In this document: piece after piece, positions 1 through 5,503 of the stretch
Layout: each line of letters begins with the position of its first letter
Position numbering within the stretch: the stretch's first letter is position 1
From: a virus
DNA: 5,503 bases
Strand: one strand, 5' to 3'
IMG/VR virus record: IMGVR_UViG_3300029478_000049
Coordinates: 1 to 5,503 of that record
Made by a program: the position numbers and the translations under genes
Notes under the pieces: model-generated
What the model saw: the letters and a program-made list of their open reading frames with translations, nothing else
What the model was told of the DNA's origin: nothing
Databases searched by the model: none

Positions 1-77
1 AGACTGCTAAAATGTAGTTGTAAGGTACGCTTGCCCGCTTTCTCATTCTGTGGTATAATCAACACAAGGCAAGTTGT
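1..77. repeat. Terminal redundancy: 1-77 is identical to 5427-5503. The sequence is a circular genome of 5426 nt written with a 77-nt overlap.
   Basis: Direct comparison of the first and last 77 nt (agactgctaaaatgtagttgtaaggtacgc...caaggcaagttgt) shows an exact match. Confidence 0.95.
31..59 (+). promoter_or_regulatory. Candidate sigma70 promoter with an extended -10 element. TTGCCC at 31-36, a 17-nt spacer, TGg at 51-53 and TATAAT at 54-59.
   Basis: The -10 hexamer matches consensus perfectly and is preceded by the TGn extended -10 motif. The -35 is weak (TTG only). The element lies in the long non-coding region upstream of VP3 and is also present in the repeat copy at 5457-5485. Confidence 0.4.
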
Positions 78-96
78 AATACCACAACACATTAAA

Positions 97-133
97 GGCG
101 TTCAGCGTAATGTTGAGCGTCTTTTTTGTTTTT
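97..133 (+). terminator. Possible intrinsic terminator or attenuator. It has a 7-bp stem, 97-103 GGCGTTC pairing with 115-121 GAGCGTC, with two G.U wobble pairs in RNA. A T6-G-T5 run follows at 122-133.
   Basis: Stem pairing was checked base by base, and the stem is immediately followed by a U-rich tract. The stem is short and wobble-containing, so this is weak. Confidence 0.3.
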
Positions 134-135
134 AT

Positions 136-154
136 ATACCGGCTATGCCGGTAT
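136..154. other. GC-rich hairpin ATACCGGC-tat-GCCGGTAT, with an 8-bp stem and a 3-nt loop, flanked by AT-rich sequence.
   Basis: Perfect inverted repeat of 136-143 with 147-154. Possible ssDNA structural element, for example a priming or packaging signal. Confidence 0.4.
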
Positions 155-177
155 GATTGGATTTGCTGTTCGCCAGC

Positions 178-725: not shown

Positions 726-764
726 TTTATATGCTAATATTCACTTATGTAGAATAATAACCTT

Positions 765-812
765 GTCACCTTGACCAGTTACCTACTTGATAGTAACTGG
801 TCAAGGTGACAC
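765..812. other. Perfect 19-bp inverted repeat. The arms are TGTCACCTTGACCAGTTAC (765-783) and GTAACTGGTCAAGGTGACA (794-812), with a 10-nt loop CTACTTGATA (784-793). Candidate origin or structural signal in the VP3-VP1 intergenic region.
   Basis: Reverse complementarity was verified base by base, and the repeat breaks exactly at 764/813. The loop plus the start of the right arm reads ACTTGATAGTAAC. This resembles the phiX174 gpA origin core CAACTTG^ATATTAATAAC, where the nick falls between G and A. Confidence 0.6.
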
Positions 813-3877: not shown

Positions 3878-4822
3878 ATGACTTGCCTTAACCCGATGTT
3901 TGCTAAACGCTCTGCTGTGCCTAACGCTAACGGCAAGTATGAGCTATCAAATTTTGTTGCTTATCGTCAGTTGTTCGGTAAATCTCTTGAATATGCCAAG
4001 GCTGAATTAGCTAATAATTATGCTGTTGTCGTTCCGTGCGGTCAATGCTTAGGCTGCCGTTTGGATAAAGCCAATGACTGGGCCATTCGGTGCGTTCATG
4101 AGGCAAAACTGCATTTGCATAATTGTTTTATAACGCTAACCTATAACGATGATTGCCTTCCAGCTGACTGTTCGTTGCATCGTGATCATTTGCAGCTTTT
4201 TTTCAAGCGACTTCGTCGCTACCTTGATTATCATGATAATTCTAAGATACGTTTTCTGTGTTGCGGTGAGTATGGCGATCTTAATCGCAGGCCGCATTAT
4301 CATATTCTTTGCTTTGGTTGGTTTCCTGCTGATGTCCGGAAAGTTTCGGCGTTGACAGCTGGTTACAATCTCTTTCGTTCTCCCACTCTGGAGCGGCTTT
4401 GGCCGTATGGTTTTAATACTGTAGGTGCTATTACCTTTGAATCTGCCCGCTATGTCGCAAAATATAGTCTTAAAAAGCAGACCGGTAAAAATGCCTGCAT
4501 GTATGACGCTCTAGGTATATCTCCGGAGTTTGTCGGCAGCTCTCTTAAGCCAGGTATAGGAGCTGATTATTTTGGCCGTTATTCTGAGGATATTTTTAAA
4601 CTAGGCTTTGTTACAATTAATGGAGCTAAGTATAAAATACCTCGCTATTATCAAACTTTATTTGAGCGCAGCAATCCCGTTTGGTATAGTATATACAAGC
4701 AGCAAAGGGCCGAAAATGCTAAGGCTGCTGTTATTGATTGTAAAAGGCTGGAAGCCAAGGAGAAGATTTTAAAGCACCGGCAGGAACAATTTGAGCGTGA
4801 TTTTGATAATTTAGGTTTGTAA
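3878..4822 (+). CDS. Replication initiation protein VP4, a gpA-like rolling-circle endonuclease. It is 314 aa from the ATG at 3878, or 317 aa from an alternative in-frame GTG at 3869.
   Basis: The translation shows rolling-circle Rep motifs: CFITLTY (motif I), PHYHILCFG (the HxH metal-binding motif II) and ARYVAKYSLKK (the catalytic YxxKY motif III). The N-terminus MTCLNPM is typical of microvirus Rep proteins. No strong SD is present, so initiation may be coupled to the upstream small ORF, which ends at 3860. Confidence 0.9.
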   Translation: MTCLNPMFAKRSAVPNANGKYELSNFVAYRQLFGKSLEYAKAELANNYAVVVPCGQCLGCRLDKANDWAIRCVHEAKLHLHNCFITLTYNDDCLPADCSLHRDHLQLFFKRLRRYLDYHDNSKIRFLCCGEYGDLNRRPHYHILCFGWFPADVRKVSALTAGYNLFRSPTLERLWPYGFNTVGAITFESARYVAKYSLKKQTGKNACMYDALGISPEFVGSSLKPGIGADYFGRYSEDIFKLGFVTINGAKYKIPRYYQTLFERSNPVWYSIYKQQRAENAKAAVIDCKRLEAKEKILKHRQEQFERDFDNLGL

Positions 4823-4877
4823 AAGTTGTAAAAAGTTGCAAAAAGTTGTTGACAGTTGCTATTTCACATGATATAAT
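4821..4877 (+). promoter_or_regulatory. Strong sigma70 promoter: TTGACA (4849-4854), a 17-nt spacer, then TG-a-TATAAT (TG at 4869-4870, hexamer at 4872-4877). It is preceded by three 10-bp tandem A-tract repeats, AAAAGTTGYW, at 4821/4831/4841, giving an UP-element-like phased bend.
   Basis: Both hexamers match consensus exactly, the spacer length is optimal and an extended -10 TG is present. The A4-5 tracts repeat at exactly 10-bp periodicity, spanning about -30 to -60. The predicted transcription start is near 4884. The downstream gene has GAGGT at 4891-4895 and ATG at 4903. Confidence 0.75.
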
Positions 4878-4902: not shown

Positions 4903-5163
4903 ATGTTAAAAGATTACTATTTTTCTTCTTTCATTGGTACTAAATGCACTCTTAAGCCTTCTACTATTAAAGCTGTTGAGGAAATTCTTTCTCGCCAAGC
5001 ATGTTTTCCTACCTATGGACGTTATCGCTCTTATTGCAAACGTGTTCAATCATTTGGCAAATGTTTCCTTTGGTGTGGTTTTTACTTTGAAGTTGCTGAA
5101 GGGTGCAGAAATAAGCTTTTGTGTATTTTAAAAGCTGATTCTCTAGATAATGAGGTGAATTAA
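4903..5163 (+). CDS. Hypothetical Cys-rich 86-aa protein with 7 Cys.
   Basis: ATG at 4903 with GAGGT 8 nt upstream, directly downstream of the consensus promoter. The 105-aa version in the ORF track starts at a TTG inside the promoter, so I place the start at 4903. There is no recognisable family. Either this ORF or the next may be the VP5 / protein-C analogue. Confidence 0.55.
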   Translation: MLKDYYFSSFIGTKCTLKPSTIKAVEEILSRQACFPTYGRYRSYCKRVQSFGKCFLWCGFYFEVAEGCRNKLLCILKADSLDNEVN

Positions 5164-5503
5164 TGAAACTTTATTGTATTTATGACCGCAAGGGTGAGCT
5201 GATGAACCCGCCTTTCGTTCAACAAAATAATGCTATGGCTATCCGTCAATTTCAAATTATGGTTAATCAGGCTTCTACTCCGGAGCGTTCCAATATTATC
5301 CATGATTATCATGAGGACTTCGTTCTGATGTATCTTGGCGAATTTAATGATAAAACGTGTGAATTTTCCCCACAAAATCCCACTTTGCTTTTGTCTACCG
5401 CTACGGAACTATTGACTCCCCCCCCCAGACTGCTAAAATGTAGTTGTAAGGTACGCTTGCCCGCTTTCTCATTCTGTGGTATAATCAACACAAGGCAAGT
5501 TGT
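5163..5503 (+). CDS. Hypothetical small protein, MKLYCIYDRKGELMNPPFVQQNNAMAIRQF.... As written, the frame runs through the C9 tract and across the circular junction to a TGA at window position 154-156, giving 139 aa. With C8 or C10 it would stop at 5434-5436 or 5441-5443, giving about 90 aa.
   Basis: ATG at 5163 overlaps the upstream stop (TAATG), with GAGGTG at 5152-5157. The first ~85 aa look like a genuine small phage protein. The segment after the poly-C is low-complexity and overlaps the promoter and terminator elements. The true C-terminus therefore depends on the C-tract length. Not in the ORF track, because it runs off the window end. Confidence 0.5.
   Translation, partial: MKLYCIYDRKGELMNPPFVQQNNAMAIRQFQIMVNQASTPERSNIIHDYHEDFVLMYLGEFNDKTCEFSPQNPTLLLSTATELLTPPPRLLKCSCKVRLPAFSFCGIINTRQV
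5418..5426. repeat. C9 homopolymer immediately upstream of the circular junction.
   Basis: Nine consecutive C read at 5418-5426. It sits at the contig break point and inside the last ORF. Confidence 0.9.
5427..5503. repeat. Second copy of the terminal redundancy. Together with 1-77 this is a circularisation signature of the assembly.
   Basis: Exact 77/77 identity with positions 1-77. Confidence 0.95.

What the first reader, a model, noticed from the sequence alone, without database searches (positions are those of the whole stretch)
5418..5426. C9 homopolymer at the contig junction controls the C-terminus of the last ORF
The ORF starting at 5163 reads through the C9 run only in the frame as written. 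It then continues 50 more codons across the junction, over the promoter-like and terminator-like elements. With C8 or C10 it terminates within 3-6 codons, at TAA 5434-5436 or TAG 5441-5443. There are two possibilities. One is that the tract length is an assembly or sequencing error at the point where the assembler broke the circle. The other is that it is a slippage-prone switch producing long and short isoforms. The annotation of this gene is uncertain until the tract length is verified.
Basis: seen in the sequence. Interest (0 to 1): 0.55.

Follow-up and report, generated by a model that had tools for sequence, protein, structure and literature searches.

The report
Variable poly-C tract in gut microvirus
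The run of nine C's at the end of a small gene of this human-gut microvirus is a real allele of a tract that differs by one base between near-identical relatives. That one base changes both where the protein ends and the spacing of a conserved promoter-like element, and the long 139-residue reading is an unconserved by-product.

Summary
C9 (5418-5426) is the only homopolymer longer than 7 nt in a 5426-nt circular gokushovirus, and it sits directly before the 77-nt terminal repeat. C9 gives a 139-aa ORF5, C10 gives 93 aa and C8 gives 90 aa.

It is not an assembler or junction artefact. Three other assemblies, 100% identical over the 3.7-4.4 kb compared, carry C9 well inside their contigs.

Relatives show that the 10-nt state (the C10 frame) is the canonical 93-aa ending. 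About half of the distinct relatives are exactly 1 nt short, mostly with C9. C9 and C10 both occur among genomes that differ locally by 0.2-0.5%.

The 51-residue read-through tail shows no coding constraint. It overlies conserved regulatory DNA: a promoter, a terminator and hairpins with compensatory changes.

This element keeps 17-nt spacing even in distant relatives, where ORF5 stops inside the spacer.

Best reading: a slippage-prone tract of the kind seen in bacterial phase variation, placed both at a gene's C-terminus and in a promoter spacer. In the window's own clade C9 looks inherited, not flickering. Function and within-population switching are untested.

The parts
5418..5426 (+). C9 homopolymer. 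It forms codons 86-88 (CCC CCC CCC = PPP) of ORF5 and at the same time the first 9 nt of the 16-nt spacer of promoter-like element P_a.
5163..5417 (+). Conserved core of ORF5, residues 1-85 (Pfam Phage_ORF5, PHROG 1670 'DNA binding protein'). The domain is complete before the tract.
   Evidence: The Pfam match covers residues 3-80, which is profile positions 1-73 of 75. The PHROG match covers residues 1-84. The AlphaFold model is confident over the first 80 residues (10-residue block means 80-94), falls to 76 in block 81-90 and is below 50 from residue 92. Variable sites by codon position are 11/5/57.
5427..5503 (+). First part of the read-through tail in the C9 frame. It is also the copy of the 77-nt terminal repeat (identical to 1-77).
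78..156 (+). Rest of the read-through tail, ending at TGA 154-156. It is translated intergenic DNA with no coding signature.
   Evidence: Variable sites by codon position are 9/8/10, and synonymous to non-synonymous codon differences are 103:320. Tail lengths differ among relatives, giving products of 119-139 aa.
5426..5443 (+). Canonical ending in the -1 (C10) frame: CAG ACT GCT AAA ATG TAG = QTAKM*. This is the ending of all 93-aa relatives.
5434..5436 (+). TAA stop reached in the +1 (C8 or C11) frame, giving ...PPPDC*.
5412..5417 (+). -35-like hexamer TTGACT of P_a, formed by codons Leu84-Thr85.
   Evidence: Found by the promoter scan. TTGACN is present in 32 of 32 distinct relatives. The Leu84 codon is TTG in 32 of 32, while six other conserved Leu positions each use 4-6 different codons.
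5434..5439 (+). -10-like hexamer TAAAAT of P_a, preceded by TGn. The spacer is 16 nt with C9 and would be 17 nt with C10.
   Evidence: In L024, L097 and L098 the hexamer is non-coding and still lies 17 nt from TTGACN.
5457..5485 (+). Second promoter-like element P_b: TTGCCC-17-TATAAT with TGn (identical to 31-59).
   Evidence: It is conserved in all relatives while its spacer sequence varies.
94..133 (+). Intrinsic-terminator-like hairpin followed by a T run, inside the read-through tail.
   Evidence: Five base pairs show compensatory changes across 28 sequences.
135..155 (+). Second hairpin, TATACCGGC-TAT-GCCGGTATG. The stop codon of the 139-aa reading lies in its 3' arm.
   Evidence: Compensatory variants ATTCCGGC/GCCGGAAT and TTTTGGC/GCCAAAA occur in relatives.
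1..77 (+). 77-nt terminal direct repeat, the assembler's overlap for a circular genome.

Best explanation
The window is a complete circular gokushovirus-type microvirus from the human gut. The C9 run is a genuine allele of a length-polymorphic, slippage-prone poly-C tract that sits in two overlapping features.

(a) It lies in the last codons of gene ORF5, after the folded domain is complete. Here a 10-nt state gives the canonical 93-aa protein ending in QTAKM*. The 9-nt state instead lets translation run 51 further codons into the downstream regulatory region.

(b) It is the spacer of a conserved sigma-70-type promoter-like element, TTGACT-spacer-TGnTAAAAT. C9 gives 16 nt and C10 gives the optimal 17 nt.

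In this genome and its clade, C9 is the inherited state. ORF5 is therefore most likely made as a 139-aa protein with an intact domain (residues 1-85) and an unconserved tail predicted to be disordered.

Shown: the tract, the frames, agreement between assemblies, the 1-nt polymorphism among relatives, the lack of coding constraint on the tail, and conservation of the promoter-like hexamers independent of coding.

Inferred: that slippage during replication creates the length changes; that P_a is an active promoter whose strength depends on the spacer; and that the tail is tolerated rather than useful.
For: Genome identity. The genome encodes an F-type capsid, a Chlamy_scaf scaffold protein, a Rep protein and Phage_ORF5. 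It is a 5426-nt circle.

C9 is not tied to the junction. L064, L065 and L066 are 100% identical to the window over 3.7-4.4 kb and carry C9 421-1245 nt from their contig ends.

Canonical frame. Every relative with an interrupted 10-nt tract ends ORF5 at 93 aa, in the frame the window would have with C10.

Polymorphism.
- Among 32 distinct relatives the spacer is 16 nt in 15, 17 nt in 15, 18 nt in 1 and 19 nt in 1.
- Off-frame states are strongly associated with C runs of 8 or more (Fisher p = 3e-5).
- L086 (C10) differs from L095, L036 and L089 (C9) by 0.2-0.5% locally. Contigs from the same ENA project are 5458 versus 5457 nt long.
- L021 (C9) and L030 (C10) differ locally by 2.6%.
- At least 9 length changes are needed on the local tree.

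Heritability. The window falls in a clade of six C9 genomes that are 5-10% apart. Genomes in the -1 frame with interrupted tracts also exist: L026 has C6TCC, and protein forms ending PPLR, LPPR and SPPR occur.

The tail is not coding. Variable sites by codon position are 9/8/10 in the tail against 11/5/57 in the core. Synonymous to non-synonymous codon differences are 103:320 against 1263:154. Tails end at different places. The same DNA is equally conserved in in-frame genomes and carries a promoter, a terminator with 5 covarying pairs, and hairpins. pLDDT is below 50 for residues 92-139, and the tail matches no PHROG family.

Promoter-like element P_a. It was found by the scan. TTGACN and TA[AC]AAT are present in 32 of 32 relatives. 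In L024, L097 and L098 the ORF5 stop lies inside the spacer, yet TAAAAT is still exactly 17 nt away. Leu84 is TTG in 32 of 32, while the other conserved Leu codons vary.
Against: No reads were available, so within-population heterogeneity and the true read-level support for C9 are not shown. L064 and L065 come from the same run, ERR1190633. L066 comes from sample SAMEA3708559, whose relation to that run I could not check. The window's source is unknown, so some or all of these assemblies may share one read set.

In the window's own clade only C9 was seen among the DNA loci. The nearest genome with C10 and the same flank (L043) is about 11% away locally. There is therefore no direct sign that this particular genome switches.

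P_a is a consensus match only, and its -35 and -10 hexamers are also codons in most relatives. One lineage has a 19-nt spacer (L023/L046), which fits a strict spacing constraint poorly.

Counts from the protein clusters are biased towards long forms, because the query was a long form.
Confidence: 0.6

Rival explanations
1. Sequencing or assembly artefact: the true genome has C10, ORF5 is the canonical 93 aa, and C9 is a systematic under-call at a homopolymer next to the contig break.
For: All off-frame relatives with the standard tract are exactly 1 nt short. Off-frame states go with long runs. Contig ends fall within about 20 nt of the tract in 4 of 26 circular contigs (p about 9e-5). One contig, L031, breaks inside the run with C9 at both ends. 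Illumina is known to make errors adjacent to homopolymers (PMC8002175).
Against: Four assemblies with different k values and different break points agree on C9 and on a 5426-nt circle. C9 is reproduced for many distinct strains across Logan, ENA and JGI data, for example in the 5 contigs shown of 20 that carry P0035, and in 8 contigs of the distant clade. C10 is called correctly in others (L030, L043, L086-L088). -1 alleles also occur in short runs (C6TCC in L026), where errors are implausible. The documented Illumina error is a substitution after the run, not a change of length.
Confidence: 0.07
2. Adaptive contingency locus (phase variation): C9<->C10 slippage is selected as a reversible switch. 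It would toggle promoter spacing and/or ORF5 termination versus translation across the downstream promoters and terminator.
For: The tract is kept at the orthologous site in deep lineages (ORF5 57% and 71% identical: L036, L039) despite using the rare CCC codon. The two states are about equally common in a sample taken without regard to tract state. Switches occur between genomes 99.5-99.8% identical. Both features it touches are classical targets of phase variation (PMC5320596).
Against: Many lineages have locked the tract by interruption, in both frames. The window's clade is uniformly C9 across 5-10% divergence. No within-sample heterogeneity, reversibility or phenotype has been shown. The tail is unconstrained.
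Confidence: 0.22
3. Recoding: the C9 genome makes the canonical 93-aa protein as well. This would happen through -1 ribosomal frameshifting on C CCC CCC, helped by a PPP stall, or through RNA polymerase adding one C, so that long and short isoforms come from a single genome.
For: The -1 frame restores exactly ...PPPQTAKM* in every C9 genome, including the distant ones (PPPHTDTI*, PPPETAKI*). C CCC CCC fits the X XXY YYZ pattern (read directly from the sequence). C9 is far more common than C8 or C11.
Against: Half of the relatives encode the product directly with interrupted, non-slippery tracts, so the slippery site is not conserved. No convincing stimulatory structure follows the site. The conserved -1-frame codons are equally explained by the TGnTAAAAT element, which persists where it is non-coding. 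+1-nt alleles (C10+A, 21 contigs) and +2-nt alleles, which a -1 shift cannot rescue, also persist.
Confidence: 0.08
4. The 139-aa protein is the real, selected product, and its C-terminal 51 residues are a functional domain.
For: The frame stays open for 26-51 codons in all -1 genomes, and long forms are seen on at least 164 contigs.
Against: There is no codon-position bias, and non-synonymous changes are in excess. Stop positions vary, giving products of 119-140 aa. The conserved blocks coincide with promoter hexamers and covarying hairpins, and they are just as conserved in genomes where this frame is not translated. The tail has low pLDDT and matches no family.
Confidence: 0.03

Closest known systems
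C-terminal phase variation by a homopolymeric tract near the 3' end of a gene (described in Helicobacter canadensis and Neisseria gonorrhoeae; PMC5320596)
   Same: [quoted passage not shown] The three frames give different C-termini, one of them a long run-on. Tract length differs between strains.
   Different: Here the host genome is a 5.4-kb ssDNA phage. The run-on goes into regulatory DNA, not into a neighbouring gene. High-frequency reversible switching has not been shown.
Transcriptional phase variation by a poly-C or poly-G tract between the -35 and -10 hexamers (Neisseria fetA poly-C, porA poly-G; PMC5320596)
   Same: A poly-C tract forms the promoter spacer, and 1-nt steps move the spacing between 16, 17 and 18 nt.
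   Different: Promoter activity and its dependence on tract length are untested here. The same tract is also coding sequence of the upstream gene.
Contingency loci in tailed phages T2 and T4 (Gomez, Barrick & Waters, bioRxiv 2025; PMC12633550)
   Same: Homopolymer repeats of 6 nt or more in phage genes, proposed to give reversible frameshifts through polymerase slippage.
   Different: That work covers dsDNA phages and shows phenotypes. Microviridae, ssDNA phages and promoter-located tracts are not mentioned.
Programmed -1 frameshifting and transcriptional slippage at homopolymeric runs (dnaX, IS elements; from my own knowledge)
   Same: A run of identical bases where a shift of one base gives an alternative, shorter C-terminus.
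   Different: The slippery run is not conserved among relatives, and no stimulator was found. It works like this only as a hypothesis.

Membership tests
Gokushovirus-type Microviridae genome | F-type major capsid, VP3 scaffold, Rep and ORF5 genes on a small circular genome | tested here: met
   PF02305 (E = 4e-171), PF09675, PF23343 and PF20577 all score above their curated cut-offs. The circle is 5426 nt with a 77-nt overlap.
Pfam Phage_ORF5 (PF20577) / PHROG 1670 | Score above the curated cut-off over the full profile | tested here: met
   71.4 bits against a cut-off of 27, covering profile positions 1-73 of 75 at residues 3-80. PHROG 1670 scores E = 2e-23 over residues 1-84.
Simple-sequence-repeat contingency locus (phase variation) | A homopolymer long enough to slip and more frequent than chance or codon usage predicts | tested here: met
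   One C9 found against 0.01 expected. CCC makes up 7 of 73 Pro codons elsewhere.
Simple-sequence-repeat contingency locus (phase variation) | Tract length differs between closely related strains | tested here: met
   C9 and C10 occur at 0.2-0.5% local divergence. At least 9 length changes are needed on the local tree.
Simple-sequence-repeat contingency locus (phase variation) | High-frequency, reversible length variation within one population | not testable with these tools
   This needs raw reads or clonal passage. Indirect hints only: L031 breaks inside the run, and contig ends cluster near the tract.
Simple-sequence-repeat contingency locus (phase variation) | The length change alters expression or product, with a phenotype | tested here: inconclusive
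   In silico, the frame and the spacer both change. No expression or phenotype data exist.
Promoter-spacer phase variation (fetA/porA type) | Tract located between the -35 and -10 hexamers of a promoter | tested here: met
   TTGACT-16-TAAAAT with TGn. The hexamers are conserved in 32 of 32 relatives and persist at 17 nt where they are non-coding. Leu84 is invariably TTG. This rests on consensus and conservation only.
Promoter-spacer phase variation (fetA/porA type) | Demonstrated promoter activity that depends on tract length | not testable with these tools
   Needs transcription-start mapping and reporter assays.
C-terminal phase variation | Repeat near the 3' end, with alternative frames giving different C-termini, seen in different strains | tested here: met
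   93-aa, 119-140-aa and 90-92-aa forms all occur in nature.
Programmed -1 ribosomal frameshift site | Slippery heptamer conserved among relatives, plus a stimulatory element | tested here: not met
   The heptamer C CCC CCC is present, but the tract is interrupted in about half of the relatives. No clear stimulator appears in the fold.
Assembly artefact at a contig junction | Tract length depends on the assembler or on the position of the break | tested here: not met
   Four assemblies with overlaps of 30, 55, 77 and 127 nt and different break points all give C9 and a 5426-nt circle.

The most novel reading that the evidence does not exclude
A true contingency locus in a 5.4-kb ssDNA microvirus. 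Replication slippage between C9 and C10 would reversibly reset the spacing (16 versus 17 nt) of a promoter that heads the structural-gene side of the genome. At the same time it would decide whether ribosomes on the ORF5 message stop before, or run through, the tandem promoters and the intrinsic terminator downstream. One base would thus give the phage population two expression programmes (bet-hedging).
Probability: 0.2. Interest if true: 0.7.

Novelty: new member of a known kind. Interest (0 to 1): 0.45.

Why it matters
Practical consequences come first. The 139-aa ORF5 annotation is not an error to be silently corrected; versions of it are already in public records, including the 139- and 140-aa 'DNA binding protein' entries DAU06817.1 and DAT72812.1. 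However, residues 89-139 should not be treated as protein sequence with a function, and protein clustering of these viruses is distorted by them. The 51-codon extension hides a conserved regulatory region with two promoter-like elements, a terminator and hairpins.

Biologically, hypermutable tracts have only just been proposed for tailed phages. A conserved, length-polymorphic poly-C tract in a minimal ssDNA phage would be a compact and testable case. It sits both in a promoter spacer and at a gene end, and both states are common in human-gut data sets. The genome is small enough to synthesise with C8-C11.

Tried and rejected
- GenBank phage records: no close relatives. The best hit covered 10% of the genome at 72% identity.
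This was solved through the identical protein P0039.
- More relatives of the distant clade in IMG/VR: none found.
- Host search in GTDB genomes: only a viral contig binned into a Clostridiales MAG, which is no evidence of host.
- Rfam: nothing near any gathering score.
- Literature on Microviridae or gokushoviruses combined with homopolymer, frameshift, slippage or promoter: nothing relevant.
- Explaining why this contig starts exactly after the tract: neither a pure C9/C10 bubble nor the known post-homopolymer substitution would place a graph vertex exactly at base 1. This is my reasoning from how de Bruijn graphs behave, so the exact coincidence stays unexplained.
- The tail as a real domain: rejected.
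- -1 frameshifting as the main explanation: rejected, because the slippery run is not conserved and the conserved -1-frame codons are explained by the TGnTAAAAT element.

Full report
**What the window is.** The first 77 bases repeat at the end, so this is a circular genome of 5426 nt. It encodes an F-type major capsid protein, a Chlamydia-phage-type scaffold protein, a rolling-circle Rep protein and a Phage_ORF5 protein, which together mark a gokushovirus-type microvirus. Identical and related contigs come from human-gut metagenomes.

- C9 at 5418-5426 is the only homopolymer longer than 7 nt.
- One such run is found against 0.01 expected by chance.
- It uses the rare Pro codon CCC three times in a row, although CCC is only 7 of 73 Pro codons elsewhere.
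- The terminal repeat begins at the very next base.
- On the circle, the ORF from 5163 is 139 aa with C9, 90 aa with C8 (TAA 5434-5436) and 93 aa with C10 (TAG 5441-5443).
- The conserved ORF5 domain ends before the tract. Pfam covers residues 3-80 and the PHROG match covers residues 1-84. The AlphaFold model is confident over the first 80 residues, dips to a block mean of 76 at 81-90 and is below pLDDT 50 from residue 92 onward.

**Is C9 an artefact of the junction? No.** The window's exact 139-aa product is on record as P0039. Three other contigs are 100% identical to the window over 3.7-4.4 kb:
- a Logan assembly of ERR1190633 (5456 nt);
- a MEGAHIT k127 assembly of the same run (5553 nt);
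- a scaffold from sample SAMEA3708559 (5481 nt).

All three carry C9 421-1245 nt from their contig ends. Each length equals 5426 plus the assembler's overlap of 30, 127 or 55 nt. The two ERR1190633 assemblies share a read set. I could not establish the read sources of the third contig or of the window, so this excludes an assembler effect but not a read-level effect.

A read-level effect is still unlikely. C9 recurs in many different strains from Logan, ENA and JGI data, while C10 is called in others. One-base-short alleles also occur in short runs such as C6TCC (L026) against C7TCC (L020). The documented Illumina homopolymer error is a substitution after the run, not a change of length (PMC8002175).

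**What relatives show about the frame.** I collected relatives using a DNA pattern from the ORF5 core, chosen without regard to the tract, and added contigs found through protein look-ups. This gave 32 distinct sequences.
- Every genome whose tract is an interrupted 10-nt pyrimidine stretch ends ORF5 at 93 aa with ...[DEQ]x[AV]K[MI]*. That is the frame the window would have with C10.
- All but one of the off-frame genomes are 1 nt short, or the equivalent. Thirteen distinct sequences have C9, including lineages whose ORF5 is only 71% and 57% identical (L039, L036). The others are C10 with a lost G (L044), CCT+C8 (L023/L046) and C6TCC (L026).
- One lineage is 1 nt long (C10+A, 91 aa, 21 contigs).
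- Off-frame states go with runs of 8 or more (Fisher p = 3e-5).

**How labile is the tract?**
- In the distant clade, L086-L088 (C10, 93 aa, contig 5458 nt) differ from L036-L038 and L089-L096 (C9, 121 aa, contig 5457 nt) by only 0.2-0.5% in the surrounding kilobase.
- L021 (C9) and L030 (C10) differ locally by 2.6%.
- A local neighbour-joining tree needs at least 9 length changes.
- By contrast, the window sits in a clade of six C9 genomes that are 5-10% apart.
- Genomes in the -1 frame with interrupted tracts also exist (PPLR, LPPR, SPPR and PLRR endings).

So the 9-nt state can be inherited for a long time. For this particular genome there is no direct sign of ongoing switching.

**The read-through tail is not a protein under selection.**
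- Among eleven -1 genomes, variable sites fall 11/5/57 on codon positions 1/2/3 in the ORF5 core but 9/8/10 in the tail.
- Synonymous to non-synonymous codon differences are 1263:154 in the core against 103:320 in the tail.
- Tails stop at different places, giving products of 119-140 aa.
- The same DNA is just as conserved in genomes where ORF5 stops at 93 aa.
- Its conserved blocks are regulatory. They include a TTGCC[CT]-17-TGnTATA[AC]T promoter-like element (5457-5485, identical to 31-59) whose spacer sequence varies freely. They also include an intrinsic-terminator-like hairpin (94-133) with five covarying pairs, and a second hairpin (135-155) with compensatory variants.

The promoter scan reports TTGACT (5412-5417), a 16-nt spacer made of C9+AGACTGC, and then TAAAAT (5434-5439) preceded by TGn.
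- Both hexamers are present in all 32 distinct relatives. The spacer is 16 nt in 15 of them, 17 nt in 15, 18 nt in one and 19 nt in one.
- In three distant relatives with an 88-aa ORF5 and no C tract (L024, L097, L098), the ORF5 stop codon lies inside the spacer. TAAAAT is therefore non-coding there, yet it is still exactly 17 nt from TTGAC[AG], while its flanks differ.
- The Leu84 codon, which supplies TTG, is TTG in 32 of 32 sequences. Six other conserved Leu positions each use 4-6 different codons.
- Observed lengths are contiguous (9, 10, 11 and 12 nt), not multiples of three. That pattern suits stepwise slippage within a tolerated spacing window better than a reading-frame constraint.

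The conserved 'AKM*' ending may therefore largely reflect the -10 hexamer. That this element is an active promoter remains an inference.

**Mechanism I commit to.** This is a slippage-prone poly-C tract of the same kind as bacterial phase-variable repeats. It falls into two of the classes defined for Neisseria: the poly-C tract between the -35 and -10 hexamers (as in fetA) and the repeat near the 3' end that changes the C-terminus (PMC5320596). In this genome the 9-nt allele is real and inherited. It gives a 16-nt spacer and an ORF5 with an intact domain plus a tolerated, unconserved tail. Whether the lability is exploited as bet-hedging, as recently proposed for T-even phages (PMC12633550; Microviridae are not mentioned there), is open. 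I put that at about 0.2.

Recoding by -1 frameshifting or transcriptional slippage would restore the canonical ending in every C9 genome. However, the slippery run is not conserved, no stimulator was found, and alleles that such a shift cannot rescue also persist.

**The junction coincidence.** Contig ends fall within about 20 nt of the tract in 4 of 26 circular contigs (p about 9e-5). L031 starts and ends with C9, meaning it broke inside the run. This suggests that assembly graphs often branch here, either because co-occurring strains share the surrounding conserved stretch or because reads differ in tract length. Even so, the other three assemblies of this very genome broke elsewhere. I could not derive a graph vertex starting exactly at base 1 from either a length bubble or the known post-homopolymer error. 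The exact coincidence is unexplained without reads.

**Verdict.** This is a new member of a known kind: repeat-mediated length polymorphism in a microvirus. It has a practical consequence for annotation and is a testable but unproven regulatory idea.

Noticed in passing
window 31-133 (31-77 is identical to 5457-5503): Promoter-like element P_b (TTGCCC-17-TATAAT) is followed after only about 35 nt by the terminator-like hairpin (94-133). It could therefore specify a very short RNA (roughly 60-70 nt), or act as a leader or attenuator ahead of the VP3 and VP1 genes.
   Followed up: partly
window 29-35 with 68-74, and 50-56 with 79-85: GCTTGCC and GGCAAGT are invariant in 28 sequences and could pair so as to bracket P_b. 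GTGGTAT and ATACCAC can pair so as to sequester the -10 hexamer, and relatives show compensatory variants (GTGATAT/ATATCAC). This may be a structure in the ssDNA or in the RNA.
   Followed up: partly
window 135-155: The hairpin TATACCGGC-TAT-GCCGGTATG is kept through compensatory changes (ATTCCGGC/GCCGGAAT and TTTTGGC/GCCAAAA) in relatives. Its function is unknown.
   Followed up: partly
window 4821-4877: Three tandem 10-nt repeats (AAAAGTTGTA, AAAAGTTGCA, AAAAGTTGTT) run into a perfect consensus promoter, TTGACA-17-TATAAT (4849-4877), upstream of the 86-aa ORF and ORF5. They could be an operator or iteron-like site.
   Followed up: no
window 764-811: A 20-bp inverted repeat lies between the VP3 and VP1 genes. 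The scan scores it as terminator-like on the - strand.
   Followed up: no
L031 (IMGVR_UViG_2700989228_000033), both ends: This contig of a related genome begins with C9 and ends with C9 and has no other terminal overlap. The assembler broke inside the tract, so the true length there is unknown.
   Followed up: partly
L086/L088 versus L089/L092 (ENA ERZ156105xx): SPAdes contigs of one strain from the same project are 5458 nt (C10, 93-aa ORF5) and 5457 nt (C9, 121-aa ORF5) long. If the samples are longitudinal, this would be a ready-made data set for testing switching.
   Followed up: partly
P0016 / L034: A gene caller read the canonical TAG stop as a sense codon and produced a 95-aa ORF5 (..TAKMQL). 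The DNA encodes the ordinary 93-aa form.
   Followed up: yes
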